From: a virus
Lineage: Duplodnaviria > Caudoviricetes
Reading direction: 5' to 3' (one strand)
DNA: 57,890 nt
IMG/VR virus record: IMGVR_UViG_3300020156_000032
Location: 1 to 57,890 of that record
In this document: positions 18,036 to 57,846 of the stretch, piece after piece
How positions within the stretch are numbered: position 1 is the first letter of the stretch
Layout: every line of letters begins with the position of its first letter
Position numbers and translations under genes: made by a program
Notes under the pieces: generated by a model
The model's input: the letters and a program-made list of their open reading frames with translations, nothing else
Told to the model about the DNA's origin: nothing
Database searches by the model: none

Positions 18036-18132
18036 AGATTAGTCCTAATAGACTGTACCTGGTTGGACGCGACCAGCTGATTCCTCAAGTCAAAATATCA
18101 TTTGACTGTCTACTAGGACTAATCTTTCTTTT
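18036..18132 (+). terminator. Three-way-junction RNA structure with U-tract (terminator-like or small ncRNA)
   Basis: 18036-18053/18108-18125 stem (one mismatch), inner hairpins 18059-18076 and 18088-18107, then TTCTTTT. Confidence 0.55.
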
Positions 18133-25424: not shown

Positions 25425-25746
25425 CCCCCTGTAAGTGGGGCCACCTGGAAGGGGGGTATAGGGGGCTCGCCTAGCCTGCCCTCGCCACGAGCTAAGCCCC
25501 TTGGCCCCTACACCTAAGGGCTTGCGGGTTTGCCCTGCCCTGCCCTTCGCCGCGTTAGCCCCCTATGGCCATAGCCGCTTAGCCCCCTAGCCCCTTAACG
25601 GGCTTGCTAGGGGGCTTAAAACGCATAGCGGGGGGTATGCCCCCCTATGGGGTGGTTCTCGGGGGGTATTGCCCCTACTTGCTCTTGCCGCTGCCCTAAG
25701 CTACCCTAGGGGCGGGTTAGGACGGGAGAGGCAAGACCTTAGACCT

Positions 25747-26408: not shown

Positions 26409-28544
26409 TTACATCTCCTGTTTAGGTGTGCGAACCCAGATCAATTCCTTGATTGCCCTGGTGATCGCAACGTACTTGAGGTTCATCTCTTGGGCACGAG
26501 CCCAAGCCGACTTCGCCATTGGATGAGGCATCTTCTCTGGTCGGAGGATATATACTCGATCAGCTTCCAGTCCCTTTGCACGATGGACAGAACTCAACTT
26601 GATACCCTCGTTGGGTTCTCTACCTTCCTCGTACTCCAACTGGAACACCTTGTCGATCTTACCTCCCTTACCAACAACAGCTTCCATACTCGTAGCATCT
26701 TCAAAGAAGACACGGAGTACCGCACACTTATCTTCGAGTGCGATGAGAACATCAGGGTCAACATTCCGCCGCTTCTTCAACCGAGCCATCTCGGTCTCCT
26801 GGTACTTATCCAACCAGTTCAGAAACTCCCCAGGATCAGTAGCTTTGGAGTTCTTGATGGTCAGTTTAAGCTGCTGACCCAAATCCCTGCCTTGGATATG
26901 ACACTTCCGATTCTCTCGAATCAGACCAAAGGCCAGGGACACAATCGGAGCATTCAACCGACATAGGACCATGTCCCTATCAGTCATCTGCTCCCGAGCC
27001 TCTTCTTGACTAGCCCACTTGACTTCACCTTCCTGATTCATGTCATGGGCTTCAAACTCTGGCACAATGGCCTGAGCTTCTTCCACAATCTTCTTACCAC
27101 ACCTCCGGGTAACTGTCAGTTTCATCTCCTGCACACCGCGGTTGGATTGACCCAACCGTTTGGTCATGTTAGGGATGCTATCGACATCAGCCCCTGCAAA
27201 CCCATAGATAGCCTGGTTAGGATCACCAACCAGGACCATACGTTCGAGGAACCGAAAGATCACTTCTTGCTGACTGGCATTGAGGTCTTGAGCCTCATCC
27301 ACCAACCCCAGGTCAGCTTTCCTCCAGGGTCTCAGATCATACAGTGTGGGGAACACGATCTGATCATTGAAGTCCAGAAGGTCTGTCATCTTGAGTGACT
27401 TATCCAAAAGGATATCAGTCAGCTCCCGAATTTCTGCCTCCTGAGTACCAAGGTCCACCTGATAATGGTCTACCAAGTGTTGAAAGACCTCATCAGTGAC
27501 GAAGTACCTTCGATCATATCCTTGCTCCTCATAGGAGAACTTCAGATTGATCTTAGCGTACCCCACCAAATCCTCTACGGCATTGATCACCGTAGCCTTC
27601 TCCTTCCAGACCTCTTCAAGGTCCTTGTTCCAGTGCGTCGATAATAAACGCCTGGTTTTCCACTTGGAGGTCGAACCCCACTTCAAGCGGAAGGCTTTCC
27701 CACAGACCTTGTAGCACATCCCATGCACTGTCGAGAACTCGAACTCAACTCCAATCCTCGCCAGAGCGTCAACGAGCCATTGGTACTGAACACTGAATGC
27801 CTTCACAATGGACCTGTTGAAGGCGATGTACCGTACCACTCTAGGCTTCTCTTGAGCCACAAAGTCCCAGACCTTCTGCTGTTGTGGACTGGGCACAGGA
27901 TCAAACCCCAGGTTCTTCACAACATCCCTCCAGATGGCGTCTCGATAGGTATAGGCTACCGAGAGGACGGAGGTGAACGTCTTACCAGTCCCCGCTTTAG
28001 CATCCACGATGCCGTGCGAGGCCGAGCCTACACTTTGGGTCATCTCCCCCAAAGAAGCCTGCTTCTTAGCTAGGACCTCCGAGGGTTTCAACTTCCGAGT
28101 AGTCCCAGTTGTCGTCCCATGAACTGTCATCTGAAGTCGAGCAAGGTCTTGCTTTAGACCCTCAACCTTGCTTGCCGCTTCCGTTGTCCTCGCAGGATTC
28201 GGAGCAAACCCCGGAGGCGGGACCGAGCTTGATTGAACTCTCGGTCGCGGTGTCTGTTTGGTTGTCCGCGTTGGAACTGGAGGGCTGACCGTTCGCGGAG
28301 AATGGTCTGCATGATTCGCCGTTCTGTCTTGATCAGAGCGGTCAGTTCCCCTCGACTGAGACGTTGGTTTTGGATTCCTCCTTGGTGATTGGGGAATGGG
28401 ACTAGGAACCACTCTTGACGTTGCCTTCTTGACAGGGACACGCTTGACCTCCTTCTTGATGGGAGCCTTCTTCTTGACAGGGAGTCGTTTGACCACCACT
28501 TTGGTAGGTGGTGGAGGTACAGGCAGTTTCTTCTTCTTGGCCAT
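26409..28544 (-). CDS. UvrD/Rep-like superfamily 1 helicase with disordered basic N-terminus
   Basis: AKAGTGKT, IAFN, LVDEAQD, VGDPNQAIYGFAGA, TRRC, SVHRAKGLEA, YVAITRA. Confidence 0.92.
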   Translation of the reverse strand: MAKKKKLPVPPPPTKVVVKRLPVKKKAPIKKEVKRVPVKKATSRVVPSPIPQSPRRNPKPTSQSRGTDRSDQDRTANHADHSPRTVSPPVPTRTTKQTPRPRVQSSSVPPPGFAPNPARTTEAASKVEGLKQDLARLQMTVHGTTTGTTRKLKPSEVLAKKQASLGEMTQSVGSASHGIVDAKAGTGKTFTSVLSVAYTYRDAIWRDVVKNLGFDPVPSPQQQKVWDFVAQEKPRVVRYIAFNRSIVKAFSVQYQWLVDALARIGVEFEFSTVHGMCYKVCGKAFRLKWGSTSKWKTRRLLSTHWNKDLEEVWKEKATVINAVEDLVGYAKINLKFSYEEQGYDRRYFVTDEVFQHLVDHYQVDLGTQEAEIRELTDILLDKSLKMTDLLDFNDQIVFPTLYDLRPWRKADLGLVDEAQDLNASQQEVIFRFLERMVLVGDPNQAIYGFAGADVDSIPNMTKRLGQSNRGVQEMKLTVTRRCGKKIVEEAQAIVPEFEAHDMNQEGEVKWASQEEAREQMTDRDMVLCRLNAPIVSLAFGLIRENRKCHIQGRDLGQQLKLTIKNSKATDPGEFLNWLDKYQETEMARLKKRRNVDPDVLIALEDKCAVLRVFFEDATSMEAVVGKGGKIDKVFQLEYEEGREPNEGIKLSSVHRAKGLEADRVYILRPEKMPHPMAKSAWARAQEMNLKYVAITRAIKELIWVRTPKQEM

Positions 28545-32509: not shown

Positions 32510-33350
32510 GACTGACTCCTTGATTACGGGGGCTATCTCCCCCAAAGAAACCCCCTAGGTCTGTAGAACGCTCTACAGCCCGTTAGGGGGCAGCGTATAG
32601 TATTAACGTATAGCGGGGCTTTACGCCCGCCAAACCGACCAACTTAGACATCACACTCCGGTCTCACACCCCCGGTGTCTAATTCTCGTTGTTACATGGT
32701 TTCTCCCATACCCCTCGATAGGTTTGCCTAGCGGAATCTCATCCTCCTGATTCGGTCCACAACCCCTAAGCAAAGTTGATAGCTCTAGTCCCCTTACCTT
32801 TCAGGCCCCACATCTGGGCTGTGTTTCCGTTGCTTCCAGTTTGCCAGTTTACTTCCTGGGGAGGCCAGCCTTGCGACTGCTTGCGGGAGACTTGCTCCCC
32901 TCCTTACTTAGCTCTGGACGTCCTAGTAGAACCGTATCTACTAGAACCCGTACACCCTGGACCTCACGTACTTACCCTACTAGGCTAGTAGCGGGCGACG
33001 CACTATCCGACAGTAATCAAGTTGTCAAAGAGCGAAACTGGATTCAAGACCCAGGAGCCGGTTATTAGCCCTTGGAGGGGCGGGCGGGGTCTCGGAGGAC
33101 CGCTCTCGCCTAACTAGCTACTACTAATATCGCCTACCGGGCCGCTCTAAGCAAGCCCTAAGATCGCTCTTTTTTGCTGATCTAACAAAATAGCCCTAAC
33201 CCCTTACCCGCTAAGGGGTTAAGGCGGTTAGGGCGATCTAACCCCACATCTAGGGGGCTCGATTAAAACGGTCGGAGCCAGCTAGGCAGTAGAGACAATC
33301 CCAAAAGAATTAAGAAACCTCCACAGCAAAACAGTCCTAGTATCTCCATG

Positions 33351-34823
33351 TTACGGATGCTCCAGCACGAGGTGTTCCATTGTGGTCTCCCACTCTTGAT
33401 CGTCAGAGTGGCTACGCAGGGTAACGTGCTTCTTATCATCAGCCACGTTCACGATCTCCCCAAACCAATACTCATCGGCCAATTCTGTGACCCAGGCCGT
33501 GTCTCCAACAGCCCATTTCTTCCCCTTCTTGGAGCCCTTGGTCCCCTTGCCGATTGACCTCTTGGCCTTTACCGGCTTGTCTTCGACCTCATCGTCCTCC
33601 TCATCCTGGGAAGAACGCTCAACATCCAGTCCACCAAGGCGATGTTCTTCAATCACCTTGTACTCATCGTTCCGCTCCAAACGTAACTTGGAGGTCGAGG
33701 TCTTCTTACCATCGACCCACATGTTGTACGCCTTGACCACAGTGTTGACGATCTCATCCCGAGCAGAACCACTCGCAGCTTCGATGTCCCCAATGATGTC
33801 CTTGCAGCATTGGATTGGATCATCCGACTTCAAGTTCCCGCTGTAGAACAGCGACCAGAACTCACAAGCCGTTTTCCAGTTGCTCATGTCTACAGCCCCA
33901 GCACCTTCCTCTTCATAGGCGTCTGGGTCCGTACCACTCGCAGCCATCAGGTACAAGAGGGCCGCAGCGTAGGCTGGCTGGATATACTTGCTGGAGCCCT
34001 TCTTGCTCTCCAGGTCGATATACTCCACAGCCTGCTTGATCTGAGGATGGTTCTCCAAGAACTCCAGACCTTCAGAATGGGGAAAGTGTTTAGCATCGCT
34101 GACCTTCTTCCCACCAGACCGAATCCAGACCAAGCGTACTGCTCCGGCGAGGATGTTGGACAACTGCTGGAGCTTCTTCTTGTCCACCGTGTCCCCTTCA
34201 AACCTCTTGTCACGATAGAACACATCCCCCAAAGAACGCTTCTGGCCGATGTCCAATGTGTCCACCGTATCAGCCTCAGCCTCGATGCCGTACACGACGA
34301 TCATAGGGGCTGTGACCTCATCCACCAGGCCATAGTCATTGGCCCACTTCTCTGGGTTGGCAATGCGGAGTTGCTCTGCCAAGATCAAACCGACCAATCG
34401 ATGCTGTCCTGATTGGATGCAGTCGTACTTGTCGATGATGATCGTCTCACCATTCATCTTCCACTTGCCACGAATGAATTCGCTGGCGTACCTCCGAGCA
34501 AAGCTGATGCGGAATGGTCGATTGGTTGGATTCTTGAGACACTTGAACTTCTTCTTATTGAAGCCAGTCCCCATTGCCTCATCCGCTGACCACTCCACAC
34601 CCTCTGGCTCCTCTTCCCAGCCAAGAAGCTCCTTGGCAATCTCCACGGTCATGGGCTTATCCTCTGGATACAGCTTGACATGGACCTTGTTGTGAACCAA
34701 CTCGAACTGACGCTGGCGTTCCTCCTGGACCAACCGCTTCTTGCGTTGGGTGGGAGTTTCCCGCTTGACCTCTTTCGGCGTAACCTTACGGGGAGCCGGA
34801 CGATTCTTAGTTGCAGTAGCCAT
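33351..34823 (-). CDS. ParB-N / DGQHR-like protein with acidic linker and C-terminal SH3/Tudor-like barrel
   Basis: NR...GKWKMNGETII...SGQHRL...D.GQKRS.GD; AGGAG SD. Confidence 0.7.
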   Translation of the reverse strand: MATATKNRPAPRKVTPKEVKRETPTQRKKRLVQEERQRQFELVHNKVHVKLYPEDKPMTVEIAKELLGWEEEPEGVEWSADEAMGTGFNKKKFKCLKNPTNRPFRISFARRYASEFIRGKWKMNGETIIIDKYDCIQSGQHRLVGLILAEQLRIANPEKWANDYGLVDEVTAPMIVVYGIEAEADTVDTLDIGQKRSLGDVFYRDKRFEGDTVDKKKLQQLSNILAGAVRLVWIRSGGKKVSDAKHFPHSEGLEFLENHPQIKQAVEYIDLESKKGSSKYIQPAYAAALLYLMAASGTDPDAYEEEGAGAVDMSNWKTACEFWSLFYSGNLKSDDPIQCCKDIIGDIEAASGSARDEIVNTVVKAYNMWVDGKKTSTSKLRLERNDEYKVIEEHRLGGLDVERSSQDEEDDEVEDKPVKAKRSIGKGTKGSKKGKKWAVGDTAWVTELADEYWFGEIVNVADDKKHVTLRSHSDDQEWETTMEHLVLEHP

Positions 34824-35062
34824 CGCTAATAAACTCCTGAAAACGGGGGTTAGGTAAACTCGTCCTCACTTGTACTGCTAGGACCATCCTAGCTTATTTA
34901 GTTTGGGACCTCACTTCCAGTTGTCCTACTGCTTCTCATACAGTAGAGCAAAATGCCTCTTCTCTGCCCGAACGGTAACTAGCAAGGGTAGCTACCGTTA
35001 TTGACCTCAACATCCCTAGAACACCTGGCCATCGGTCCTAGGGACCACTAACCTTTGCGACC

Positions 35063-35302
35063 TCACTTTCGTTTCTGTCGCGACGGGCTAGTGTTTCTGA
35101 TCACTGGCTCTCGACCCTCCTTTCTTGTGATTGTCTTCTTCGGAACCTTCTTGACAGGGAGAGGCATCACCTCGAAATCTTCAAGCAGATCATCGAAATG
35201 AAATCCCGCCTCCTCCCTGGTCCCAGCCACCCCGACTGCTCCTGCCAGAGCAATCTCCCTGAATGACCCTTCCAGTCCCGCAGTTGACACAACCATCACC
35301 AT
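35063..35302 (-). CDS. Small hypothetical protein
   Basis: GGAGG SD. Confidence 0.5.
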   Translation of the reverse strand: MVMVVSTAGLEGSFREIALAGAVGVAGTREEAGFHFDDLLEDFEVMPLPVKKVPKKTITRKEGREPVIRNTSPSRQKRK

Positions 35303-35674
35303 CTGGACCTCCCTTCCACCTCTTACACCCTTCCGCCCCTAAGTGGTACGACCTCTTAGAGGTTCCTTGGCCACCCAGCCCCATCATTGAGGTCACAGGT
35401 CCACTCTCCCAGACTCTAGGTTAGTGGGGTCTACCTAAACCGGCCATACGTTAATACTATACTAAAACCCGCTGCGACGCAACACTAGAGGTGCCGCCAT
35501 TTAGCCCCCTATTAGGCCAATATAATAGTATACCCCATTTTACCCCCCTTTCGGTTAATTTCCGCCGCTGCCCGCTCGCTAAGCCCCATTTAGCCCCCTA
35601 TTCTGCCCTAGAACGAACCCGGAATTGCCATAACCCCTTATGCCCCATACACTTAGGAAAATTCCTAAAATCCC

Positions 35675-35704
35675 TTGCACCAAGAGTCCTATCTAGCCTA
35701 TATT
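35675..35704 (+). promoter_or_regulatory. Sigma70-like promoter (TTGCAC-18-TATATT)
   Basis: Consensus match at the divergence point between - and + gene blocks. Confidence 0.55.
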
Positions 35705-35711
35705 TCACTTG

Positions 35712-36078
35712 TCGGTTGTAGGTGCCCAGGTAGCCAGTTCGGTTTGACTTTGTACTCGTGATCAAACTGGACAAGCCACCTAGCACGCTGCAACAAGATG
35801 TAAGACCCAAGAGGTCAAAGTGGTGCCTAGCACCCCCAGACATCAATAACACTGTAGGAAGGAGACTGCGTATGAAGTAATGCCTACGAGAGACATACAT
35901 TCGTTGAGAACGAGTCGTAGTTGAGAGGTCAAACACAGCAACCCACACACAACGTCCACTAGGACCCACGTTCACCTGGGCAGGGAGAGCCTACTATACT
36001 CCAAGTCAAGAACGTGCAACTCTCCTGGACATAAAGGCTTGCCTACATGATGTAGCACACTCTCAACTACGACTTTTT
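35712..36078 (+). ncRNA. Candidate large structured ncRNA (~365 nt)
   Basis: Perfect 15 bp stem 35913-35927/36060-36074 then T run; long hairpin 35715-35792; crossing pairings 35967-35973/36010-36016 and 35981-35989/36020-36027; no credible + strand ORF. Confidence 0.6.
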
Positions 36079-36108
36079 ACAAACCTCTAATATAAGGATA
36101 TAGTAACA

Positions 36109-36408
36109 CTGGCCGAGATACTCCAGTCTTACGACCCGCCCACGGTTGGTCGGAAACCTCAGTACCCTTGGGATGAGTGGCTGGATGGCCGCAAGCGTCG
36201 ATTAACCCAAGGTGAAGACTTCCATTGCGAGATCAACTCGATGGCTCGTCTTATCCGTAGAACAGTCACGAAGAAACGCCAGCAAGGATCAACGCTGGAG
36301 TCCGTGACAGTCCATGTCGAGGCCAATGCTCTCGTCGTGGAAGCTGTACTCTCCCCAAAGAATCGCAAGGGCCGGAACTGCCCTAAGACCAACAAACAGA
36401 AAGGATGA
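36109..36408 (+). CDS. Small basic protein with CTG start (absent from ORF track)
   Basis: AAGGA SD 36094-36098; (M)AEILQSYDPPTVGRKPQYPWDEWLDG...QGEDF...KG stop; fills gap to next gene. Confidence 0.65.
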   Translation: MAEILQSYDPPTVGRKPQYPWDEWLDGRKRRLTQGEDFHCEINSMARLIRRTVTKKRQQGSTLESVTVHVEANALVVEAVLSPKNRKGRNCPKTNKQKG

Positions 36409-36778: not shown

Positions 36779-37232
36779 TAATCAATGGAAGGAAGCAGAA
36801 CGTAGAGTTGCTGCTTTCTTCGCCGCCAACCGTCGCCCTCTCTCTGGCTCCAACTCTGGAGAGGGAGAGGGCGATGATGCTCGGCATGAGGAATTGTACC
36901 TAGAGTCCAAATACTCCAAGTACATCCCGATAATGCGTCTCTACAGGGAATGTAGAGAAAAGTGCAGCAAGGAATCTAAGGTTCGTGCTGCGAAAGGTAA
37001 ATCTCCCCGCATTCCAGTCATAGCTCTGCAAGAGAAGAACTTGCCTGGAATACTCTTGTGTCTCCACTCTAACGACTTGCCAGAGTTTCTACGCATATAC
37101 GCAAACTTACATGGATTCGAGGTCATTGAACGACCTGAAAACCGTAAGGCGTGGAAACGAGTCAAGTCGGATAAGAAGATGGACCCTAACTATCGCCCTC
37201 GCAAAAAACCACCTCAACCCCGCAAACGATGA
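36771..37232 (+). CDS. Holliday junction resolvase-like PD-(D/E)XK nuclease
   Basis: WKEAERRVA...PLSG...GDD...LESKY. Confidence 0.7.
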   Translation: MSSNQWKEAERRVAAFFAANRRPLSGSNSGEGEGDDARHEELYLESKYSKYIPIMRLYRECREKCSKESKVRAAKGKSPRIPVIALQEKNLPGILLCLHSNDLPEFLRIYANLHGFEVIERPENRKAWKRVKSDKKMDPNYRPRKKPPQPRKR

Positions 37233-37825
37233 GCCTAACCTTATCGCCTCCGGTGAGGTCAAGCTATGCCTTGCTCCAAGATCATTGGAACAAATGCACA
37301 CGCTGTCCTCTCCATGAGTCCCGTCGTCGAGTTGTCCATGCCAGGGGAACTCTACCCTGCACGGTATTGTTTATTGGTGAGGCCCCCGGTGAATCAGAGG
37401 ATAGTCTCGGCAAGCCCTTCATCGGACCTGCCGGTAAGCTATTCGATGAGATCATTGCTGAGGTCGTCACCAACCTGGGCAAACCCTTCACCTACGCTCT
37501 AGTCAACCTCGTCGGTTGTTGGCCAAAGGTGGAGGTCGAGCTTAGTTCTGGTGAGACCCGTCAACCTACCAAGGATGAGATTCAGAAGTGCCAACCCCAC
37601 TTGATTGAACTGATCCGCTTGGCTCGACCTAAACTGATCGTCACCTTGGGAGACCTTGCCCGCAGGAACCTACCTCGTAACACCGGCATAAACAATAAAA
37701 TCCGGGAAGCGAGCCTGATCCACCCCGCCAATATCCTGCACAGAGACAACCCCTCTGCCCAGGAACTAGACTTCAAGCGTAGCGTCCTCACTCTCACCCA
37801 ACACATCCGAGCCTTGGAGTCCTAG
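37229..37825 (+). CDS. Uracil-DNA glycosylase family 4 (SPO1 polymerase N-domain-like)
   Basis: CTRCPL, FIGEAPG.SED..GKPFIGPAG, NLVGCWP, EIQKC, HPA. Confidence 0.88.
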   Translation: MSLTLSPPVRSSYALLQDHWNKCTRCPLHESRRRVVHARGTLPCTVLFIGEAPGESEDSLGKPFIGPAGKLFDEIIAEVVTNLGKPFTYALVNLVGCWPKVEVELSSGETRQPTKDEIQKCQPHLIELIRLARPKLIVTLGDLARRNLPRNTGINNKIREASLIHPANILHRDNPSAQELDFKRSVLTLTQHIRALES

Positions 37826-37826: not shown

Positions 37827-39035
37827 ATGGTGTCTACCCGCTCCTACCGCAATCCTCGCCGGGCCTCATCTCCCCCAAAGAAGCAGACGCCCCTGTGGCG
37901 TGGACCTCAAGAAGATGGCATCACGTTCTCTCTGCTATCTCGATTTATTGAGTGTAGGGAACGCTTCCGTCTCAAGGTCATTGAGGGATTGGTTGAGGAT
38001 GAAGGCTTCTTAGATGCCATCGAGTATGGCAACATGTGGCATGAGGCTGAGGAAGCATTTAGTCGCAAACGAGATTACGAACGAGTCATGCGACAAATGT
38101 ATGCTCGTTGGCGAGCTAACTACCCTAACCAAGAGGAGGAGACTCGTAAGTGGTACATGGTCTGTAAGACCACGTTCCCGATCTACATCGAATACTGGAA
38201 GCAACACCAACATGAGGTTCAACGTACTCCAATCCTGGAAGAGAAATCTTTCTCGGTAAAATACGTTTTACCCTCTGGTCGTTGGTTAAAGCTCCGGGGG
38301 AAGTTCGATGCAATCTTCGGTATCCTCAAGACAGGACAACTCCTACTCCAAGAGAATAAGTCCAAAAATAAGATGGACCTTGAGGGACTCCAAAAGACTC
38401 TCGACCAAGATTTACAAACCATGCTCTACCAGATCGCCATGCGGCTATCTATCGTAGAGAAGAAGGGGGAACACTACTTTCAGACTGATGAAGGTCAGAT
38501 GAAGGTCCCTCAGATGAAGAAAGCTCCTACCTTCCAAGGGGTTCTCTATAACGTGGTAAAACGTCCTCTTTCGGACATGTATGCTATCCGTCAACGTAAG
38601 ACGGAAACAGAGACTCAGTTCTTCGACCGGCTGGCCCAGAACATCCGTGAAGATTCCTTTACTTCTGATGGTAAGGCCAAAAGAGACTCCAGCTACTTTC
38701 ATCGCTGGGAGATCAACATCACGGAAGAAGAGATCGACACGTTCAAGAACCGAGTTTTTGACCCGCTGCTTGAACAACTGATGGACTGGTGGGAATGGAT
38801 TCAACCAGACCCATTTGATCCCTGGCGACCCAGAACCTATGGTGAGATGAAATGGCATGAGTTCCCAGACCAAGAGGAGGTGCGTAACACCTTCCATTGG
38901 CAATCACCTTGGGGAGTCTACAATTCACTTGCTAGTGGTCGTCGTGGTTCTTACTTTGACCTCCTGACATCCAACAGCAAGAAGGGGCTGCATAAAGCAA
39001 CAACCCTCTTCCCAGAACTCCAAAAGGTAGAGTAA
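37827..39035 (+). CDS. Cas4/RecB-like PD-(D/E)XK exonuclease
   Basis: FSLLSRFIEC, GNMWHE, E.SF, GKFDAI..ENKS, LQTMLY. Confidence 0.8.
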   Translation: MVSTRSYRNPRRASSPPKKQTPLWRGPQEDGITFSLLSRFIECRERFRLKVIEGLVEDEGFLDAIEYGNMWHEAEEAFSRKRDYERVMRQMYARWRANYPNQEEETRKWYMVCKTTFPIYIEYWKQHQHEVQRTPILEEKSFSVKYVLPSGRWLKLRGKFDAIFGILKTGQLLLQENKSKNKMDLEGLQKTLDQDLQTMLYQIAMRLSIVEKKGEHYFQTDEGQMKVPQMKKAPTFQGVLYNVVKRPLSDMYAIRQRKTETETQFFDRLAQNIREDSFTSDGKAKRDSSYFHRWEINITEEEIDTFKNRVFDPLLEQLMDWWEWIQPDPFDPWRPRTYGEMKWHEFPDQEEVRNTFHWQSPWGVYNSLASGRRGSYFDLLTSNSKKGLHKATTLFPELQKVE

Positions 39036-39262: not shown

Positions 39263-39779
39263 AAAACTCCTAAAAGTCTTGGAGCGTATCCTGGACAACC
39301 TGGAAGCTGACGCTGATGAGCGTGCTAATCATGTCAGCCTCTATTTGGAAATCAGTCAGTCCATTGAGACCCAACTGAAATGTCTCCATCAACTGTTGGA
39401 CCATAAAGACCTCCGACAGATTCTAGTCTTCTGGAATGAGTTCAAGACCTTCAAGACCCAAGTTCCTGATGCTCACATCGGCATTGTGGACGGTAAGATG
39501 TTCAACTGGATTGAAGATATTGCAACCCAGATCGACCTTATGTCCACCCCTGGTATCCATACCTTGACCTTGGAAATTCAAATCCCCAAGGTCGTAGAAG
39601 GTGAATCCATCGCTAACTCTTACGATATTGTCGGACTACGTCACACTCCTCCCACTCCCGAAACCCATGCCGAAACCTCAGAAACAGTCACCGTCCCCGA
39701 AACGCTCTCCCCCTCAACCTTCTCGGACGACACCGTCCAACAGTTCGTCGAAGAAATCATCGCCGAAGCCAACGTCTGA
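39252..39779 (+). CDS. Hypothetical protein
   Basis: ATG 39252 inside track ORF. Confidence 0.55.
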   Translation: MKRKKLLKVLERILDNLEADADERANHVSLYLEISQSIETQLKCLHQLLDHKDLRQILVFWNEFKTFKTQVPDAHIGIVDGKMFNWIEDIATQIDLMSTPGIHTLTLEIQIPKVVEGESIANSYDIVGLRHTPPTPETHAETSETVTVPETLSPSTFSDDTVQQFVEEIIAEANV

Positions 39780-40548
39780 TAGTCCTGGCTACTTAGGGAT
39801 TACAGCCCTAGGTATGGTCATTTATGGACCATCTGGCGTAGGCAAGACAGAGCTTGCCGCTCACTTCCCTAATGCCGGGTTCTTGTATGACCCACAGGAA
39901 CCTGGCATTGTGGACCTCCTAGCTTTCAGGAAGGTCCCAGAACCCATGTTCAAGGAGAAGGTCATTGATCATAAAGACCATCTCCGTATGTTAGAGAAAG
40001 TAGCTTCTGGTAAGCTGGAGTGTGAGACCCTTGTGGAAGATTCTCTCACAGGCTTCGAGAAGCTCTGCTTTCACCACCATTGCAACGAACACTACAATGG
40101 TGATCTGACCAAAGAGGGCTTCTACGCCTATGGACAAGGTCCTAAGCAGGCAGCGAAGTTCGATTGGTCAGACTACATTGACCTACTCGATGCCGTTCGA
40201 GAGGCCGGTATCAATGTCATTCTCCTGGCTCACGCCCAGGTCAAACCCTACAACAATCCCGAAGGTCCTGACTACGACCGATTCATTCCCTATCTTGATA
40301 AGGAGACTTGGCAAGCTATCCATCGTTGGGCTCAATCCCTACTGTTCTACAACTACTGTGTCAGCACCGAAAAGAAAGGTCTCAAAACGAAAGCCAAGGA
40401 TGGTGAACGTCAAATTGTGACCTCTTGGACTCCCGCAGCGGATGCTAAGAATCGGTATGGTCTGCCCCAGTACATCGAAGCAGGATGCTCCGGCAAGGAG
40501 GCATACGAAAACTTTGAGGCAGCTTTCCGTAAGGCTGCTGGTCTCTAA
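39667..40548 (+). CDS. Sak4-like AAA (AAA_24) ssDNA-annealing ATPase
   Basis: IYGPSGVGKT, LVEDSLT, ILLAH, DAKNRYGLP. Confidence 0.85.
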   Translation: MPKPQKQSPSPKRSPPQPSRTTPSNSSSKKSSPKPTSDSPGYLGITALGMVIYGPSGVGKTELAAHFPNAGFLYDPQEPGIVDLLAFRKVPEPMFKEKVIDHKDHLRMLEKVASGKLECETLVEDSLTGFEKLCFHHHCNEHYNGDLTKEGFYAYGQGPKQAAKFDWSDYIDLLDAVREAGINVILLAHAQVKPYNNPEGPDYDRFIPYLDKETWQAIHRWAQSLLFYNYCVSTEKKGLKTKAKDGERQIVTSWTPAADAKNRYGLPQYIEAGCSGKEAYENFEAAFRKAAGL

Positions 40549-42605: not shown

Positions 42606-44678
42606 ATGCGACGACAAGCCGTATCAACACCTCGCCCCCGCTCAACACGAAACTCCCGTCCAACTCCCCGAAGCGTATCGACTACATCCAAAGTACGGTC
42701 GAAGGTCAACGCCAATTACAATCTCAAGTACAGCAAGCCCCCTGGAATCTTGTGGAGTCTCGACACCGAAACCACAGGAACAGATTTCTATCATGGATGT
42801 AAGCCATTCCTCTATTCTGCCTGCTCCACCGACGGAGACGTCCTCACCTGGGAATGGGACGTAAATCCTCTAACCAGGGAACCCATCATTCCTAATTCGG
42901 AGGAAAAGGAACTGGGAAAGTTCCTCAACTCCAACCACTTTGTCTTACACAACACTAAATTTGATTATCGAGCAGGGGAGTCCATAGGGCTCCCTATCCC
43001 GTCGTGGGAACATACCCAGGACACTCACCTCGCTAGTCATACCCTAGCTTCCGCAGCATCTCACAAACTCAAGGATTTGGCCCTGCAACATCTGGACATC
43101 AATGATGATGACCAAAAGGACCTCCAAGAGGCTGTGAATGCTGCTCGTCGCTTTGGGCGTAAGATGAAGTGGCGTATTGCCTCAGAAGGAGACCCTCACT
43201 TCCCTGCTTGGAAACCTAAACAGAATGAGGGCTGGTGGGTCGCAGACATGTGGCTGCCTAGAGCAGTCGCAAAATACTGTAACTACCCAAAGGATCATCC
43301 TTGGTGGACAGTCTGCCGAAAGTACAACATCCAAGATGTTGAACGTACAATCGGTCTCTGGCTCCTAATGAAAGAGGCTATGGAGGAAGAAGGTTTATAC
43401 CACCTCTATGAACGTCGCCGTCTCCTGTTACCCATCACTTACAAGATGGAATCACGGGGCATGACGTTCTCTTCCCAAAAATTGGAGCCAGTGCAGCAGG
43501 ACTTCCACCAACGCTGTACCAAAGCTAAGCAGACCTGTCTCAAATTGGCAGGTCCTGGACATACCGAGAAGAGCCTCAACAGTCCAGGTCAGCTGCGAAG
43601 TATCCTATTCGATAAGTATAAACTCCCTCCTGGGAAGAAAACCAAAAGCGGTCAAAACTTCTCTACTGATAAAGAAGTCCTAAACGACCTCGTACATAAG
43701 GCTGCTCCAGGTTCAGCAGCCTTACGCTTTTTGGAGAACCTCCTAGATGCTCGTGGCTATGAAACTGCCTTGAGCTATATGGAGTCCTATGAGAAGTTTG
43801 CTTGTCGAGCAAATAAGATACGCTGGTGGGAACTCCATCCTGGGTTCAACATCAGTGGTACAGCGACCACCCGATTCTCATCCAGCAACCCTAATGCCCA
43901 GAACATCAGCAAGAAGGAGAAAGCAAACCTCAGACAGATATTTGGTCCTATGCCTGGTCGTGAATGGTGGGCTATGGATTACTCAAATATCGAGATGCGT
44001 ATCTTCGCATACGAATCAGGTGACAAGCGTCTGATCGAGGCTTTCGAGTCTGGGTTCAGCGTACACTTGATTTTCGCGGAGGTGCTTCATCCCAAAGAAT
44101 ATGCCGAGTGCCTCAAGACAGGAGAGGAGTTCAAAGACAAGTACGAATCCACTCTGTACCAATGGGTCAAGAATGGTAACTTCGCACTCATCTACGGAGC
44201 AGGTGTTAAGAAAGCCAATGCAACCTACCACGTTGACGGTGCCTATGACATCATTCGTAAGAAGCTCCCCCTCATCGATAAGTTTATGCGAGCTAAGGAT
44301 GAGGAAGCTCGTAAGAAGGGATACATTACAACCCTTGGTGGCTATCGTCTCCAAGTCCCAGAGAAGAAACCCCACTGTGCTGTCAACTACTTTGTCCAGG
44401 GTACTGCTGGTTGGTGTATGATCAACGCTATGATCCGAGTAGCGGAGTATCTCCAAACCCTCAAGGATCATCACCTTATCATGACCATCCACGACGAACT
44501 GGATTACGACTTCCCAACCGCCGCAGGAACCAAGAACCTCTCCTACGCTTACCATTGCAAGAAGCTAATGGAGTTATCAGGGAACGACATTGGTATCCCT
44601 ACCCCTGTGGATGTTGAGCGTCATCCTGACAACTGGGCTAAAGGCGAACGTATCAAAGACTGGAGCTTGGCCGCCTAA
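42606..44678 (+). CDS. polA: Family A DNA polymerase with 3'-5' exonuclease domain
   Basis: LDTETTG, HNTKFD, TTRFSSSNPNAQNI, DYSNIEMR, KNGNFALIYG, NYFVQGTA, TIHDEL. Confidence 0.95.
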   Translation: MRRQAVSTPRPRSTRNSRPTPRSVSTTSKVRSKVNANYNLKYSKPPGILWSLDTETTGTDFYHGCKPFLYSACSTDGDVLTWEWDVNPLTREPIIPNSEEKELGKFLNSNHFVLHNTKFDYRAGESIGLPIPSWEHTQDTHLASHTLASAASHKLKDLALQHLDINDDDQKDLQEAVNAARRFGRKMKWRIASEGDPHFPAWKPKQNEGWWVADMWLPRAVAKYCNYPKDHPWWTVCRKYNIQDVERTIGLWLLMKEAMEEEGLYHLYERRRLLLPITYKMESRGMTFSSQKLEPVQQDFHQRCTKAKQTCLKLAGPGHTEKSLNSPGQLRSILFDKYKLPPGKKTKSGQNFSTDKEVLNDLVHKAAPGSAALRFLENLLDARGYETALSYMESYEKFACRANKIRWWELHPGFNISGTATTRFSSSNPNAQNISKKEKANLRQIFGPMPGREWWAMDYSNIEMRIFAYESGDKRLIEAFESGFSVHLIFAEVLHPKEYAECLKTGEEFKDKYESTLYQWVKNGNFALIYGAGVKKANATYHVDGAYDIIRKKLPLIDKFMRAKDEEARKKGYITTLGGYRLQVPEKKPHCAVNYFVQGTAGWCMINAMIRVAEYLQTLKDHHLIMTIHDELDYDFPTAAGTKNLSYAYHCKKLMELSGNDIGIPTPVDVERHPDNWAKGERIKDWSLAA

Positions 44679-49970: not shown

Positions 49971-50031
49971 GAGGGGTCCAGGATGGAGGAAATTCGCAGT
50001 TCCTCCTTAGTCCTTGACACCTGGACCCCTC
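49971..50031 (+). promoter_or_regulatory. Structured GGA element, copy 1
   Basis: 12 bp outer stem, AT, GGAGGAA/TTCCTCC hairpin, TGACA. Confidence 0.6.
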
Positions 50032-52767: not shown

Positions 52768-55143
52768 ATGAAATTGTCTGAATGTCCAGAGAAAATTAAA
52801 CCTTTCGTGTTCCACGGTCTACACCTGGAACCAATGGAGAAAGGTGAGGTCAAGGAAGTTCGTGGCGATTGCCCCTTCTGTGATAAAAGCAATCACTTCT
52901 TTGTCAAGGCCGAGACTGGTCAATGGCAATGTAAGCGTTGCAGTAACAGCGGCAATATCTATAGCTTCCTCCAGATGCTGTTGAATGAGAGCCTACCTTT
53001 GACCACTGACGACGACTATGAGTCCTTATCAGAGGATCGTCATGTCCCAGTATGGGTTCTCAAGGAATTTAGGGTCTGTCGTTCTATGCTCAATGGAGAG
53101 TGGTTACTCCCCACCTTCAATGAGAAGAACGCTATCTCTAACCTCTACAAATACACCGAACTCACTGACCCTGAGAGCGGTGAGACCATCACCAAACTCC
53201 TCAGTACCCCAACCTGCAAGATTGGTCTGTTCGGTACTCCCCTCCTCACTGATAAGCAGAAGCAACTCTGTATCTGTGAGGGACCGTGGGATGGTATGGC
53301 CTTGTATGGTGTGCTAGGGACTCTCAAGAAGAAGGGAGACCGTTACGTCACCTGCAAGAACGGTACACCTGGAGTCCTGCTAGAGGCACACGGAGTATTG
53401 TGTGTCCCTGGTGCTGGTACATTCCAGGAGTCTTGGCTCAACTATTTCCCTGGTCGTAACGTGGACCTCCTATTCGACAACGACCACCCACTCAAGAAAC
53501 CCGACGGTGGTATACGTCTGGTCAAGGGTCAGTGCGTTCGTCCTGGCTGGGATGGAATGACTCGTGTCGTAGCTATGGTCAACCAGACCGGGAAGCGACC
53601 TCGTCGCCTCCGCGTGTTGGCATGGGGTCAACCACCAGACGATGTTGAGCAATCCGGGGGCTACGATGGTGTATCCTCCCCAAAGAACCTGGCAGGGTAC
53701 GGTCACAATAACGACCTCCCACACGGCTATGATATTCGTGACTTGATCAAGGATAAAGGTCCTCGTGAGGTAGTGAGCTTCCTCAAGTCGGCCCCTACCA
53801 AGATCGAAATGGAGAAGCCGAGTTCTGATAGCCATACGGATATTCCCACCGTGGAGCCTATCGAACGAACTACCTTTGAGGACCTCTGTAAGGATTACGC
53901 AAGTGTACTCCACTTTAGTCCTCAATTACGAGACACCTTGTGTGTCATGTTGTCAGTCATTACTAGCACTGACCTGCTAGGAGATCAATTGTGGCTCAAG
54001 GTGATTGGTCCACCTGGGTCCGGCAAGACAACACTCGCAGAAGCCGTGTCAGTAGCTCGTGAATACTGTATGCCTAAGAGTGTTCTCACTGGGTTCCATT
54101 CAGGATACCTGGAACAGGATGGTCGGAGAGCCTCGAAGGACAACAGCTTGATTCCTGACATGAAGGGTAAGACCGTCATCGTCAAAGACGCGGACACTTT
54201 GATCCAGGCCCCTAATCGGGATAAGATCATGTCCGAGTTACGCGACATATATGACGGGACCTCTCGTTCTCATTATCGTACTGGTAAACAGAACGACTAT
54301 AGTGACATTCGTACTACATTCATCTTGTGTGGTACGGACGAGCTTCGCATGTTGAATCGTTCGTTCCTCGGTGAACGCTTCCTCGACTGTGAGATCATGA
54401 CTAAGGATCAGGACACTACGCCCTATCTACAGCGGGCTATGTCCAACACCTACAGTAAGATCACACAGGGGATGTTGGCTAACACTCCTGACAACGACGA
54501 TAACGAGGTCCGCGAGGATTCGTCCGAGGGGCTGTTCCTCCAGCAAGTTACTTATGGATTCTTGAAACACCTCAAGGAGTCATTACCTCAGTTACGTCCT
54601 CCTATCCTCCCCAAAGAAGTGGAGGGCACACTCGGTGCCTTGGCTACGTTCCTAGCATACATGAGGGCTCGTGTTCGTCGTGATGGATACGACCTCGCAT
54701 ATCGTCCTAGGGCTGAGCTTCCTACTCGTATTGCGAGTCAGTTAGTGAAGCTGGCTGTATGTATTGCTATCGTCTTGGGTAAGGAGACTATTGACGATGA
54801 GGTCCTACGCATTGTTCGTGATCGTGTACTAGACACATCAGTTGGATTCCAACTGGATGTTGCTAAGGCACTCATCGACAAAGAGGAAGGTTTGAGTGTT
54901 CGCCAGATTTGTGTGGCTGTCAATCTCCCTGAGACAAATGTACGTCGTTTGTTAAACGATTTACAGGAGTTCAATATCGTGGAGCGTTACCAAAAGTCAA
55001 ACAAGTCTGGTCAACGTGGTCGTGATATGCACCTATGGGTTCTCACTGAGGGACTAAGCGAAATCTATAAAGCTGCGTTCCTTGATCAGAAGCCTGTGCA
55101 GAAGTCAAAGCCAAAGCCTAAACCCAAGGCTCGTAAGAAATAA
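52768..55143 (+). CDS. Primase-helicase: Zn finger, TOPRIM, MCM-like AAA+, C-terminal winged helix
   Basis: CPFC..CKRC; ICEGPWD, LFDND; GPPGSGKT, VKDAD, ERFL, PTRIASQL. Confidence 0.85.
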   Translation: MKLSECPEKIKPFVFHGLHLEPMEKGEVKEVRGDCPFCDKSNHFFVKAETGQWQCKRCSNSGNIYSFLQMLLNESLPLTTDDDYESLSEDRHVPVWVLKEFRVCRSMLNGEWLLPTFNEKNAISNLYKYTELTDPESGETITKLLSTPTCKIGLFGTPLLTDKQKQLCICEGPWDGMALYGVLGTLKKKGDRYVTCKNGTPGVLLEAHGVLCVPGAGTFQESWLNYFPGRNVDLLFDNDHPLKKPDGGIRLVKGQCVRPGWDGMTRVVAMVNQTGKRPRRLRVLAWGQPPDDVEQSGGYDGVSSPKNLAGYGHNNDLPHGYDIRDLIKDKGPREVVSFLKSAPTKIEMEKPSSDSHTDIPTVEPIERTTFEDLCKDYASVLHFSPQLRDTLCVMLSVITSTDLLGDQLWLKVIGPPGSGKTTLAEAVSVAREYCMPKSVLTGFHSGYLEQDGRRASKDNSLIPDMKGKTVIVKDADTLIQAPNRDKIMSELRDIYDGTSRSHYRTGKQNDYSDIRTTFILCGTDELRMLNRSFLGERFLDCEIMTKDQDTTPYLQRAMSNTYSKITQGMLANTPDNDDNEVREDSSEGLFLQQVTYGFLKHLKESLPQLRPPILPKEVEGTLGALATFLAYMRARVRRDGYDLAYRPRAELPTRIASQLVKLAVCIAIVLGKETIDDEVLRIVRDRVLDTSVGFQLDVAKALIDKEEGLSVRQICVAVNLPETNVRRLLNDLQEFNIVERYQKSNKSGQRGRDMHLWVLTEGLSEIYKAAFLDQKPVQKSKPKPKPKARKK

Positions 55144-55205
55144 GGGGTGATGGATGGAGGGAATGCTCAGCCCCTCCCGGCGTCGAGTGACACCATCACC
55201 CCTTA
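55141..55205 (+). promoter_or_regulatory. Structured GGA element, copy 2
   Basis: 13 bp outer stem, AT, GGAGGG/CCCTCC hairpin, TGACA. Confidence 0.6.
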
Positions 55206-55211: not shown

Positions 55212-55352
55212 AAGGGGTGGAACTAGACTGTGACCTCATTGTTGTCCTACCTGCAAACCCTCGTGTTGTTCCCACGAGGGGTAGTGATGACCTCAACTAC
55301 CTTCTCGGGTTAATAGTAGTTGTTGTGAGATCATGTTCCACCCCTTTCTTTT
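55212..55352 (+). ncRNA. Multibranched structured RNA candidate with U-tract
   Basis: 55212-55223/55335-55346 stem; inner 55258-55265/55273-55280 and 55294-55300/55316-55322. Confidence 0.5.
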
Positions 55353-55390: not shown

Positions 55391-55458
55391 GCGGTATTGT
55401 CTGGTGACAAAGCGGGTCTTATATACCTGCCAGCCTGGTTCGATTCCAGGATACCGTA
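55391..55458 (+). tRNA. Non-canonical tRNA-Ile(UAU)-like gene with reduced D arm
   Basis: Acceptor GCGGTAT/ATACCGT, discriminator A, anticodon arm GCGGGT-CTTATAT-ACCTGC (TAT at 55420-55422), T arm CCTGG-TTCGATT-CCAGG; followed by CTA, not CCA. Confidence 0.7.
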
Positions 55459-55493
55459 CTACTACTACTCCCCTCCTTCCCTGGTTAATGTTG

Positions 55494-55871: not shown

Positions 55872-56161
55872 GTCCTACACGATAACTCTCCCTGCCAAGT
55901 CCTACACCTTTCCTGGGAGCCCCATGAGGAGTCCTGCAAGAGAATTCTACCCAGGAGTCCTGCAAGGGAGTTCTGCAAAGGAGTCCTACAGGAGAGTTCT
56001 GATAAAGACCTCATATCGCCGAGTCCTACACCGGAGTTCTGCAAGAGACCTCAACCTTACCGAGTCCTGCAAAAGCACTCGTACTGGAGTCCTGCAAGGG
56101 AGTTCTGCAATGGAGTTCTGAAAGGGTGAGTCCTGCAAGAGTTCTGCAAGAGAGTTCTGCA
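55870..56161 (+). repeat. Iteron array GAGTYCTRCA (~17 copies, local 13 bp period), putative origin
   Basis: Copies at 55870, 55897, 55929, 55942, 55955, 55968, 55981, 55994, 56021, 56034, 56062, 56087, 56100, 56113, 56128, 56139, 56152. Confidence 0.85.
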
Positions 56162-57563: not shown

Positions 57564-57593
57564 AGCCCCCTAGCTAACCCCTAGGGGGCTTTT
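57564..57593 (+). terminator. Intrinsic terminator, copy 1
   Basis: AGCCCCCTAG-CTAACCC-CTAGGGGGCT plus TTT. Confidence 0.75.
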
Positions 57594-57815: not shown

Positions 57816-57846
57816 AGCCCCCTAGCTAACCCCTAGGGGGCTTTTT
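57816..57846 (+). terminator. Intrinsic terminator, copy 2 (identical hairpin)
   Basis: Same 27 nt hairpin as 57564 plus TTTT. Confidence 0.75.

What the first reader, a model, noticed from the sequence alone, without database searches (positions are those of the whole stretch)
35712..36078. Large, pseudoknotted ncRNA candidate leading the replication operon
Seen: it starts just after a TTGCAC/TATATT promoter and has an irregular hairpin 35715-35792. A perfect 15 bp stem 35913-35927/36060-36074 ends in TTTTT and encloses crossing pairings (CACGTTC/GAACGTG and CAGGGAGAG/CTCTCCTG). A competing long-range 9 bp match links 35723-35731 and 35974-35982. Known: phages carry large ncRNAs of unknown function (GOLLD, ROOL). 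I cannot assign this one to a family.
Basis: partly seen in the sequence, partly recalled or inferred. Interest (0 to 1): 0.72.

Follow-up and report, generated by a model that had tools for sequence, protein, structure and literature searches.

The report
Structured leader before phage replication genes
This stretch is most likely the long, partly folded untranslated leader of a soil phage's replication operon, ending in one of the phage's many long-stem terminator-like hairpins, and there is no sign that it is a large ornate RNA of a new or known family.

Summary
The window is a 57.9-kb soil viral contig. The finding lies in a 1.29-kb non-coding gap between a conserved 490-aa gene (minus strand) and the replication operon (small gene at 36109, then UDG, PD-(D/E)XK, AAA_24, PolA).

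Real and beyond chance:
- the 15-bp perfect inverted repeat followed by a T-run
- the 5' hairpin (z -4.0)
- a small three-way junction (z -3.6)

Not beyond chance:
- the crossing "pseudoknot" helices (12.6% of shuffles)
- the 9-bp long-range match (17% of shuffles)
- the 132-nt interior of the big stem (z -0.66)

No Rfam family matches. No sequence or structure homologue turned up in 160 syntenic loci, so covariation cannot be tested. No RNA data exist.

The genome holds 12 perfect inverted repeats of at least 12 bp against 1.35 expected. The intergenic ones have T-rich tails on the + strand.

Best reading: a lineage-specific, cis-acting structured 5' leader with a terminator-like or processing stem. 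Interest is low.

The parts
35675..35704 (+). Promoter-like site tcccTTGCAC-18 nt-TATATT. The predicted start is about 35711.
   Evidence: Sequence, positions. Seven of 19 promoter-like hits upstream of the small99 gene in 26 sequences carry CCC directly before TTG: the window, L008, L058, L086, L092, L104 and L076. It was not listed by the tool's scan (8 of 12 matches). The start site is inferred, not shown.
35711..35796 (+). Hairpin H1, an ~80-nt irregular hairpin that begins about 4 nt after the predicted start.
   Evidence: -36.7 kcal/mol, z -4.00, 0 of 200 shuffles. The minus strand gives z -3.59.
35797..35846 (+). Small three-way junction: a 5-bp closing stem with two short hairpins.
   Evidence: z -3.62 on + (0 of 200 shuffles) against -1.41 on - (22 of 200).
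35847..35912 (+). A-rich linker, mostly unpaired. It carries GGAAGGAG (35857-35864), 7 nt, then ATG AAG TAA (35872-35880).
   Evidence: Centroid structure. An SD+ATG combination occurs in 135 of 2000 shuffles, so it is not significant.
35913..35927 (+). 5' arm of the perfect 15-bp inverted repeat.
   Evidence: (I3).
35928..36059 (+). 132-nt interior of the long-range stem.
   Evidence: z -0.66 (+) and -0.81 (-); a crossing pair occurs in 12.6% of shuffles.
36060..36078 (+). 3' arm of the inverted repeat (36060-36074) and the T-run T36074-T36078.
   Evidence: This is one of 8 intergenic large-spacer inverted repeats whose + strand tails are T-rich (this one has 4 T in 8).
36094..36408 (+). AAGGA ribosome-binding-like site (36094-36098) and the first gene of the operon (small99, 36109-36408, CTG start).
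   Evidence: The CTG aligns with the ATG or GTG start of homologues that begin MAK(I/V)LK. Codon-usage score 0.256. tblastn finds it syntenic in 33 of 80 viral loci and 19 of 80 metagenome loci.

Best explanation
35712-36078 is most of the roughly 398-nt untranslated 5' leader (about 35711-36108) of the rightward replication operon's mRNA. It is not a separate RNA gene.

Proposed sequence of events:
1. Host RNA polymerase starts at the CCCTTGCAC-18-TATATT promoter.
2. The first ~135 nt fold into a long hairpin that starts ~4 nt from the 5' end, followed by a small three-way junction. This is likely a 5'-end-proximal protective or regulatory structure.
3. An unstructured A-rich linker follows.
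4. A 15-bp long-range stem then closes over 132 nt of unremarkable sequence and is followed by UUUU, 34 nt before the CUG start of the first gene.
5. This last element belongs to the phage's own class of long-stem, large-loop, T-tailed intergenic hairpins. It most likely acts in cis as a leaky terminator (attenuator), or as a double-strand processing or stability site that sets how much transcript reaches the replication genes.

Shown: the sequence features, their statistics and the synteny.
Inferred: transcription itself, the start site, and any termination or processing.
For: 1. The stretch is non-coding, and the neighbouring gene order is conserved.
2. The promoter architecture recurs upstream of the same gene in relatives: L008 ccccTTGACG-18-TATACT, L058 ccccTTGACC-18-TATATT, L086 ccccTTGCAA-17-TATATT, L092 and L104. 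This gives leaders of about 65-460 nt.
3. In L008, L058 and L092 the leader begins 2-3 nt after the predicted start with a long closing stem around two hairpins. That stem ends ~37 nt before the ATG. In the window the stem ends 34 nt before the CTG.
4. The L002 leader (the same TTGCAC hexamer is seen) is about 276 nt and strongly folded: z -3.92, 0 of 200 shuffles.
5. AT skew turns positive (0.15-0.33) at about 35700 and stays positive through the + strand genes. It is about 0 just upstream.
6. The window has 12 perfect inverted repeats of at least 12 bp, against 1.35 +/- 1.09 in 40 shuffles.
7. The 8 intergenic ones with 33-132-nt spacers have a mean of 4.6 T in the 8 nt after the 3' arm on the + strand. 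Background is 1.95, and 0 of 20,000 random sets reach this value. Their minus-strand tails average 2.1.
Against: - There is no RNA evidence of any kind.
- The promoter is a weak consensus match (8 of 12) that the tool's scan did not list.
- The free U-tract is only 4 nt and the 'loop' is 132 nt, so this is not a canonical intrinsic terminator. Its T-tail (4 of 8) is at the low end of its class.
- H1 and the inverted repeat fold about equally well on both strands, so a DNA-level role is not excluded.
- The leaders of L058, L007 and L104 are not more stable than shuffles: z +0.27, -0.49 and -0.84. Relatives with gaps of only ~360 bp (L082, L086) have no room for such an element. A folded leader is therefore not universal in the group.
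- No homologue of this sequence or of its 5' structure exists in the loci examined, so selection on the structure is untested.
Confidence: 0.5

Rival explanations
1. A stand-alone, roughly 368-nt non-coding RNA. Transcription from the 35675-35704 promoter ends efficiently at the 15-bp stem plus U-run. The released RNA acts in trans or as a scaffold, and the operon is transcribed from its own promoter.
For: - The stem is followed directly by a T-run.
- The best sigma-70-like match in the 1.8-kb region (TTTACA-17-TATAGT, 10 of 12) lies at 36076-36104, right after the stem.
- The whole stretch folds at z -3.13.
Against: - That downstream promoter would start transcription at or after the CTG start codon (36109). 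It would also remove the AAGGA site, which is hard to reconcile with translation of a gene whose N-terminus is conserved. No relative has a promoter-like site in that position.
- The interior of the 3' domain is unstructured.
- There is no homologue and no Rfam match.
- The U-tract is short.
Confidence: 0.12
2. A DNA-level element. The 15-bp perfect inverted repeat would mark one of four things:
- an invertible 132-bp segment (promoter switch)
- a pair of protein-binding half-sites
- an origin-type cruciform
- the ends of a miniature inserted element
For: - The repeat is perfect Watson-Crick and encloses sequence with no extra RNA structure.
- Both strands fold alike.
- A promoter-like TTCACC-18-TATACT lies inside it, pointing at the operon.
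- The element is absent from relatives, as an insertion would be.
Against: - No recombinase or transposase family was found in the 30 window proteins scanned with Pfam. The contig is only 75% complete.
- There are no other copies. The exact two-arm pattern gave 0 matches in viral contigs and 0 in genome contigs, and there is no second copy in the window.
- The region has no DnaA-box excess, no tandem iterons and no GC-skew switch.
- The T-rich tail on one strand only, shared with the other intergenic long-stem elements, fits an RNA role better.
Confidence: 0.15
3. No specific function. The leader would be fast-evolving spacer, and its hairpins would be by-products of local duplication and inversion that are tolerated in a long gap.
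For: - There is no conservation in any relative.
- Gap length varies from about 200 to 2600 bp among syntenic loci.
Against: - A 15-bp perfect repeat is beyond all 300 shuffles of the stretch.
- There is a genome-wide ninefold excess of such repeats, and the intergenic ones have strand-specific T-rich tails.
- H1 starts at the predicted 5' end, as the closing stems do in L008 and L058.
Confidence: 0.1

Closest known systems
Promoter-proximal leader transcripts ending at a terminator that must be read through, for example phage lambda PR'-tR' (the 194-nt '6S' leader with Q antitermination) and early-operon terminators tL1/tR1. Recalled, no paper read here.
   Same: A promoter is followed by a few hundred nt of untranslated, folded RNA. 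This ends in a stem plus U-run just before the genes of a temporally regulated phage operon.
   Different: The stem here encloses 132 nt and has only 4 free U. No antiterminator gene or qut/nut-like site was identified, and neither termination nor read-through is shown.
5'-terminal stabiliser hairpins and RNase III sites in phage and bacterial leaders, for example the ompA 5' hairpin, the lambda N leader and T7 early RNase III sites. Recalled, no paper read here.
   Same: H1 starts ~4 nt from the predicted 5' end, as the closing stems do in L008 and L058. The stem (15 bp plus 3 further predicted pairs, about 18 in all) sits directly upstream of the first gene's ribosome-binding site.
   Different: There are no processing data. 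The stem is shorter than two helical turns, and no sequence similarity to any described site was tested or found.
Canonical Rho-independent terminators.
   Same: A stem is directly followed by T residues on the transcribed strand. It belongs to a set of intergenic long-stem elements with T-rich tails.
   Different: The loop is 132 nt, where the tool's scan takes 3-8 nt, so that scan did not list it. The U-tract is short. The phage also has canonical terminator-like hairpins such as AGCCCCCTAG...CTAGGGGGCTTTTT at 57.6 and 57.8 kb.
GOLLD and ROOL large phage-borne RNAs (bioRxiv 10.1101/2024.12.08.627333, passages read; Rfam models).
   Same: It is phage-encoded, non-coding and longer than a typical sRNA.
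   Different: - No match to any Rfam model.
- 367 nt, whereas many GOLLD members exceed 800 nt.
- Not beside a tRNA island. The window's only tRNA is at 55391.
- No supported pseudoknot and no family of homologues.
Invertible promoter segments ('invertons') bounded by inverted repeats. Recalled.
   Same: A 15-bp perfect inverted repeat flanks a short segment that contains a promoter-like site, directly upstream of an operon.
   Different: No recombinase was found. Only one orientation was seen, and only in contigs, which cannot show a minority form.

Membership tests
GOLLD / ROOL / other Rfam large ncRNAs | Match to the family covariance model at the gathering score | tested here: not met
   0 matches at the gathering threshold over the whole window. 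At E <= 10 on 34800-36300 there were only two unrelated weak hits, H19_2 (E 4.8) and Ocean-VII (E 9.5), both outside 35712-36078.
GOLLD / ROOL / other Rfam large ncRNAs | Conserved multi-stem, pseudoknotted architecture supported by covariation | tested here: not met
   The crossing helices occur in 12.6% of shuffles and the interior gives z -0.66. No homologue was found with which to count covariation.
GOLLD / ROOL / other Rfam large ncRNAs | Location near tRNA islands in phages or prophages (passages) | tested here: not met
   The only tRNA in the window is tRNA-Ile at 55391-55459, 19 kb away.
5' leader (untranslated region) of an operon mRNA | Lies between a promoter and the first start codon on the same strand, and is non-coding | tested here: met
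   Promoter-like site at 35675-35704 with counterparts in relatives. No ORF with coding-like codon use. The first gene starts at 36109. The promoter itself is a prediction.
5' leader (untranslated region) of an operon mRNA | Transcript continuous from the start site into the first gene | not testable with these tools
   No RNA run holds the sequence. Only contigs of the source DNA run could be laid.
Rho-independent terminator | G+C-rich stem with a short loop (3-8 nt) | tested here: not met
   The stem is 15 bp with 7 G-C pairs, but it encloses 132 nt. It was not reported by the terminator scan.
Rho-independent terminator | U-rich tract directly after the stem on the transcribed strand only | tested here: inconclusive
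   TTTTACAA follows the stem: 4 free T, 4 of 8. The minus-strand tail has 3 of 8. The class as a whole averages 4.6 against 2.1.
Invertible DNA segment | Flanking inverted repeats | tested here: met
   15-bp perfect repeat, 132 bp apart.
Invertible DNA segment | Site-specific recombinase encoded nearby, and both orientations present in the population | tested here: inconclusive
   No recombinase family in the 30 proteins scanned, but the contig is only 75% complete. Only an assembled contig could be laid, in one orientation.
Miniature inverted-repeat mobile element | Several copies with the same terminal repeats | tested here: not met
   There is one pair only in the window. The two-arm pattern gave 0 matches in viral contigs and 0 in genome contigs, exact matches only.

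The most novel reading that the evidence does not exclude
The ~400-nt leader is a true cis-regulatory RNA switch of an undescribed kind. In this reading the long-range 15-bp stem forms, and stops or exposes the transcript, only when the 5' hairpin domain or a phage or host factor allows it, so timing the replication genes. Alternatively, the repeat-bounded 132-bp segment is an invertible promoter that toggles replication-operon expression in a phage.
Probability: 0.08. Interest if true: 0.55.

Novelty: new member of a known kind. Interest (0 to 1): 0.24.

Why it matters
If the reading is right, it is an ordinary piece of phage gene regulation: a folded leader and a leaky stop in front of the replication genes of an uncultured soil siphovirus-like phage. 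Its use is mostly in annotation. It marks the likely start of the rightward early/middle operon, shows that the operon's first gene starts with CTG, and shows that this phage places long-stem, large-loop, T-tailed hairpins at gene boundaries. It does not open a new RNA class. With no homologues and no transcript data, nothing about it can presently be tested by comparison.

Tried and rejected
**Homologue searches that found nothing useful**
- blastn 'distant' of 34800-36400 against 50,697 phage records: no match.
- Single-protein search for related loci with the 490-aa protein, PD-(D/E)XK and small99: no relatives.
- The PD-(D/E)XK alignment A1 gave 80 viral loci (100 relatives among 120 pattern matches) and 80 metagenome loci (269 relatives among 293). 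All are at most 51% identical in that protein. The best protein anywhere is 57% identical.
- nhmmer of 34824-36320 against the 80 viral loci: 3 hits, all at or beyond 36076, in the small99 gene. nhmmer of 35712-36078 gave one noise hit at E 4.5.
- nhmmer of the gap against all 160 loci: 0 hits at E <= 10. blastn gave one 29-nt match (E 0.04) to window 35274-35302, outside the finding.
- tblastx: best E 0.081.
- Covariance model R1 was built from the window's own 35711-35846 with its MFE structure. It found only the window itself in the window plus 99 of the 160 loci. The 100-source limit meant L084, L094, L095, L098, L103 and L106-L161 were not searched.
- No model was built for the 3' domain, because its interior is not structured.

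**Coding and other readings rejected**
- Coding under another genetic code: all three stop codons occur in every frame.
- The 125-aa minus-strand ORF 35598-35975: codon score -0.085.
- tRNA or tmRNA: none in the region.
- Origin of replication: no DnaA-box excess (12 against 11.3 expected, none in the gap), no tandem repeats, no skew switch.
- The AGAGGTCAA motif has 12 copies against 0.97 expected, two of them inside the finding. It is probably a codon-usage effect: five coding copies I checked by hand sit in the same frame, reading E-V-K/N (sequence contexts), and related 8-mers are also common.
- The SD + ATG-AAG-TAA mini-ORF occurs in 6.75% of shuffles.

**RNA evidence**
- No RNA holder is listed. 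The only run holding the stretch is a DNA run that may be the source of the contig.
- Its assembled contig covers 34800-36500 with 0 differences and no joints.

**Other**
- The Protein Atlas gave nothing for small99.
- PHROGs gave only phrog_5931 (unknown function) for the 490-aa protein.
- My working label 'ParB-like' for that protein rests on a recalled SGQHR motif. It does not come from any call; Pfam found nothing.
Supplements were not consulted.

Full report
**Context**

The window is a complete IMG/VR viral record of 57,890 bp, classed linear and about 75% complete. It carries:
- a terminase, a lambda-type portal, a capsid and a tape-measure gene on the + strand up to about 25 kb
- a leftward block from about 26 to 34.8 kb that includes a UvrD-type helicase
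- a rightward replication block: a UDG-family protein (37229-37825), a PD-(D/E)XK nuclease (37827-39035), AAA_24 (39601-40548), a family A DNA polymerase (42606-44678) and a primase-like protein (52768-55143)

The finding lies in a 1,285-bp gap. On the left is the start of a 490-aa leftward gene (34823; phrog_5931, function unknown). On the right is a small conserved gene that I call small99 (36109-36408).

The order 490-aa gene (-), gap, small99 (+), UDG, PD-(D/E)XK recurs in related contigs. small99 is detectable by tblastn in 33 of 80 viral loci and in 19 of 80 metagenome loci. The gap length varies from about 200 bp to more than 2 kb.

**Checking the observation**

The hexamers, the 5' hairpin, the 15-bp repeat with its T-run, the two crossing helices and the 9-bp long-range match are all in the sequence at or near the stated coordinates. 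Their weight differs.

Beyond chance:
- The 15-bp perfect repeat exceeds the longest helix (11 bp) seen in 300 dinucleotide shuffles of the 367 nt.
- Hairpin H1 (35711-35796) has z -4.00, with 0 of 200 shuffles as stable.
- The whole stretch has z -3.13 on + and -2.43 on -.

Not beyond chance:
- A crossing pair of helices of at least 6 bp arises in 12.6% of 500 shuffles of the interior.
- At least one helix of 9 bp or more arises in 17% of 300 shuffles.
- The 132 nt enclosed by the big stem are no more stable than their shuffles: z -0.66 on +, -0.81 on -.

So the '3' domain' is a long-range stem around ordinary sequence. It is not an ornate pseudoknotted fold.

**It is not coding and not a known RNA**
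- Every frame has several stops of all three kinds.
- The ORFs inside the stretch score -0.085, -0.077 and -0.054 on a codon log-odds trained on 25 genes of the window. Those genes score 0.12-0.41, and small99 scores 0.256.
- Rfam gives no match at the gathering threshold for the whole window. At E <= 10 it gives only two unrelated weak hits outside the stretch.
- ARAGORN finds only a tRNA-Ile at 55391.

**Search for relatives**
- Nothing in 50,697 phage records resembles the gap.
- The closest PD-(D/E)XK homologue among 5.8 billion proteins is 57% identical.
- The 160 syntenic loci fetched are at most 51% identical in that protein.
- nhmmer, blastn and tblastx of the gap against these loci detect only the small99 coding part, plus one 29-nt marginal match outside the finding.
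- A covariance model of H1 plus the small junction finds only itself in the window plus 99 of the 160 loci.
- The exact two-arm pattern occurs nowhere else in the viral or genome collections.

Covariation therefore cannot be assessed. The element is lineage-specific.

**What the surroundings say**

First, small99 has no ATG, GTG or TTG upstream of its conserved N-terminal part. Its CTG at 36109 aligns with the start codon of homologues that begin MAK(I/V)LK (ATG in most, GTG in L086). An AAGGA lies 10 nt upstream of it. The operon's mRNA must therefore start upstream of about 36094.

- ccccTTGACG-18-TATACT in L008
- ccccTTGACC-18-TATATT in L058
- ccccTTGCAA-17-TATATT in L086
- tcccTTGACC-17-TATGCT in L092
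- tcccTTGACG-18-TAGGAT in L104
- tcccTTGCAA-17-TAACAT in L076

In all, 7 of the 19 promoter-like hits in 26 upstream regions carry CCC directly before TTG. L002 has the same CTTGCAC. This places the start near 35711 and makes 35711-36108 a ~398-nt leader.

Third, AT skew switches from about 0 to +0.15 to +0.33 at about 35700 and stays positive in the rightward genes.

Fourth, leaders in relatives are 65-460 nt, and some are folded in a comparable way.
- In L008, L058 and L092 a long closing stem around two hairpins starts 2-3 nt after the predicted start. It ends about 37 nt before the ATG and is followed by a short U-rich stretch.
- L002 has three strong hairpins in a ~276-nt leader: z -3.92, 0 of 200 shuffles.
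- L104 has a long hairpin followed by CCCCUUUUU shortly after the predicted start.

Against generality:
- The leaders of L058, L007 and L104 as wholes are not more stable than shuffles: z +0.27, -0.49 and -0.84.
- L082 and L086 have gaps of only about 360 bp.

**The 15-bp stem is one of a class in this genome**

The window contains 12 perfect inverted repeats of at least 12 bp within 400 nt. Forty shuffles give 1.35 +/- 1.09, with a maximum of 4. Three of the 12 lie inside long ORFs and nine are intergenic.

Eight of the intergenic ones have spacers of 33-132 nt. They start at 13954, 15384, 18036, 35913, 49971, 55141, 55212 and 56755. All eight lie in + strand-transcribed regions.
- The 8 nt after their 3' arms hold on average 4.6 T, against a background of 1.95. 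None of 20,000 random sets of eight positions reach this.
- Their minus-strand tails average 2.1 T.
- The three repeats inside ORFs have 2-3 T.

This is the signature of RNA hairpins read on the + strand (terminators, 3' or 5' protective structures, or processing sites). It is not the signature of DNA sites. The finding's stem has the largest spacer and one of the weaker tails (TTTTACAA).

**Mechanism proposed**

Shown: the features and the statistics. Inferred: everything about RNA.
1. Host polymerase starts near 35711.
2. H1 sequesters the 5' end, as known 5' stabiliser hairpins do (recalled).
3. The small junction and an unpaired A-rich linker follow.
4. The 15-bp stem closes once its 3' arm is made. 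With the short U-run, it either stops a fraction of transcripts 34 nt before the CUG start (attenuation) or offers a double-stranded target for processing.

A weak start codon behind such a leader would keep the first gene's output low.

I put about 0.5 on the cis-acting leader reading. I cannot choose between attenuation and processing or stability.

**Rivals**
- **A released ~368-nt RNA with a separate operon promoter (0.12).** It has in its favour the best sigma-70-like match of the region (TTTACA-17-TATAGT, 36076-36104). That promoter would start transcription at or after the start codon.
- **A DNA-level role (0.15).** This covers an invertible segment, binding half-sites, an origin or a miniature insertion. 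It fits the perfect repeat, the unstructured interior and the equal folding of both strands. No recombinase, second copy, iteron, DnaA box or skew switch was found, and the strand-specific T tails argue for RNA.
- **No function (0.10).**

**Comparison with known families**

The stretch is not a member of GOLLD, ROOL or any Rfam family. According to the passages read, those RNAs lie in phages and prophages, often near tRNA islands. ROOL's predicted structure has multiple pseudoknots, and many GOLLD members exceed 800 nt.

It works most like promoter-proximal leader and terminator arrangements and leader stem-loops of phage operons (lambda PR'-tR', the lambda N leader, T7 RNase III sites; all recalled, not read here). 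It fails the canonical definition of an intrinsic terminator on loop size.

**Verdict**

This is a real but ordinary feature.

Noticed in passing
window 36109-36408: The first gene of the replication operon (99 codons, conserved YPW..WLDG motif, no Pfam or PHROG family) has CTG where most homologues have their ATG start (MAK(I/V)LK...). No ATG, GTG or TTG is available upstream of the conserved part, so standard ORF calling truncates it to 55 aa.
   Followed up: partly
window, 16 sites from 1178 to 52610: The word TTTGGGGGA has 16 copies, all on the same DNA strand (the - strand; it reads TCCCCCAAA on +). Most of them carry the same flanks, giving ATCTCCCCCAAAGAA on +. They lie in both + and - transcribed regions and inside genes as well as between them. 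A strand-specific DNA signal seems likely, for example nick sites (recalled from T5-like and other phages). This is untested.
   Followed up: no
window 35446-35462 (+) and 32595-32611 (-): An identical 17-mer, ATACGTTAATACTATAC, occurs in inverted orientation. Each copy points outward toward a transcription unit (the 32509 leftward gene, and the rightward gap and operon). It occurs 2 times against 0.02 expected. It is possibly a shared operator or a second promoter, which would lengthen the leader to about 640 nt.
   Followed up: partly
window 35497-35513, 35586-35602; also 25555-25616, 57564-57590, 57816-57842: Two exact 17-nt direct repeats, CCATTTAGCCCCCTATT, lie 89 bp apart in the C-rich part of the gap. 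They share the word TTAGCCCCCTA with other non-coding regions, where it forms terminator-like hairpins AGCCCCCTAG...CTAGGGGGCTTTTT.
   Followed up: no
window 49971-50031 and 55141-55205; 18036-18125 and 55212-55346: Pairs of intergenic long-stem elements look related. The first pair shares ATGGAGG.AAT...GACAC inside closing stems that differ by compensating changes. The second pair shares TAGACTGT.ACC after the 5' arm and a TCTTTT tail. This may be a small family of structured intergenic elements in this phage.
   Followed up: no
L008:5066-5196, L058:5300-5419, L092:568-714: These three related contigs share a homologous ~115-145-nt leader upstream of the small99 homologue. The 3' part is conserved (..GTTT.AAA.TCCCGCG.A.TGAAAGG..), and a long closing stem starts at the predicted transcript start.
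   Followed up: partly
window 35857-35880: A strong Shine-Dalgarno-like GGAAGGAG is followed, 7 nt later, by ATG AAG TAA (a two-codon ORF) in the unpaired middle of the leader. A comparable SD+ATG occurs in 135 of 2000 shuffles, so it may be chance.
   Followed up: yes
window 35146-35161, 28424-28438, 28470-28484: A 15-nt word CTTCTTGACAGGGA(G) occurs three times. In the helicase gene it encodes a repeated (L/V)PVKK peptide. In the gap it lies in a 79-codon minus-strand ORF (35063-35302) with a borderline codon score of 0.084. That ORF may be a real small gene.
   Followed up: partly
window 34900-35100, minus strand: The presumed 5' untranslated region of the leftward 490-aa gene is also unusually stable on its own strand: z -3.78 against -1.19 on the + strand (200-nt window, 30 shuffles).
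   Followed up: no
window 55930-56140: There is a cluster of at least 8 copies of AGTCCTGCAA, and of the variant AGTTCTGCAA, at irregular spacing near the right end of the contig.
   Followed up: no
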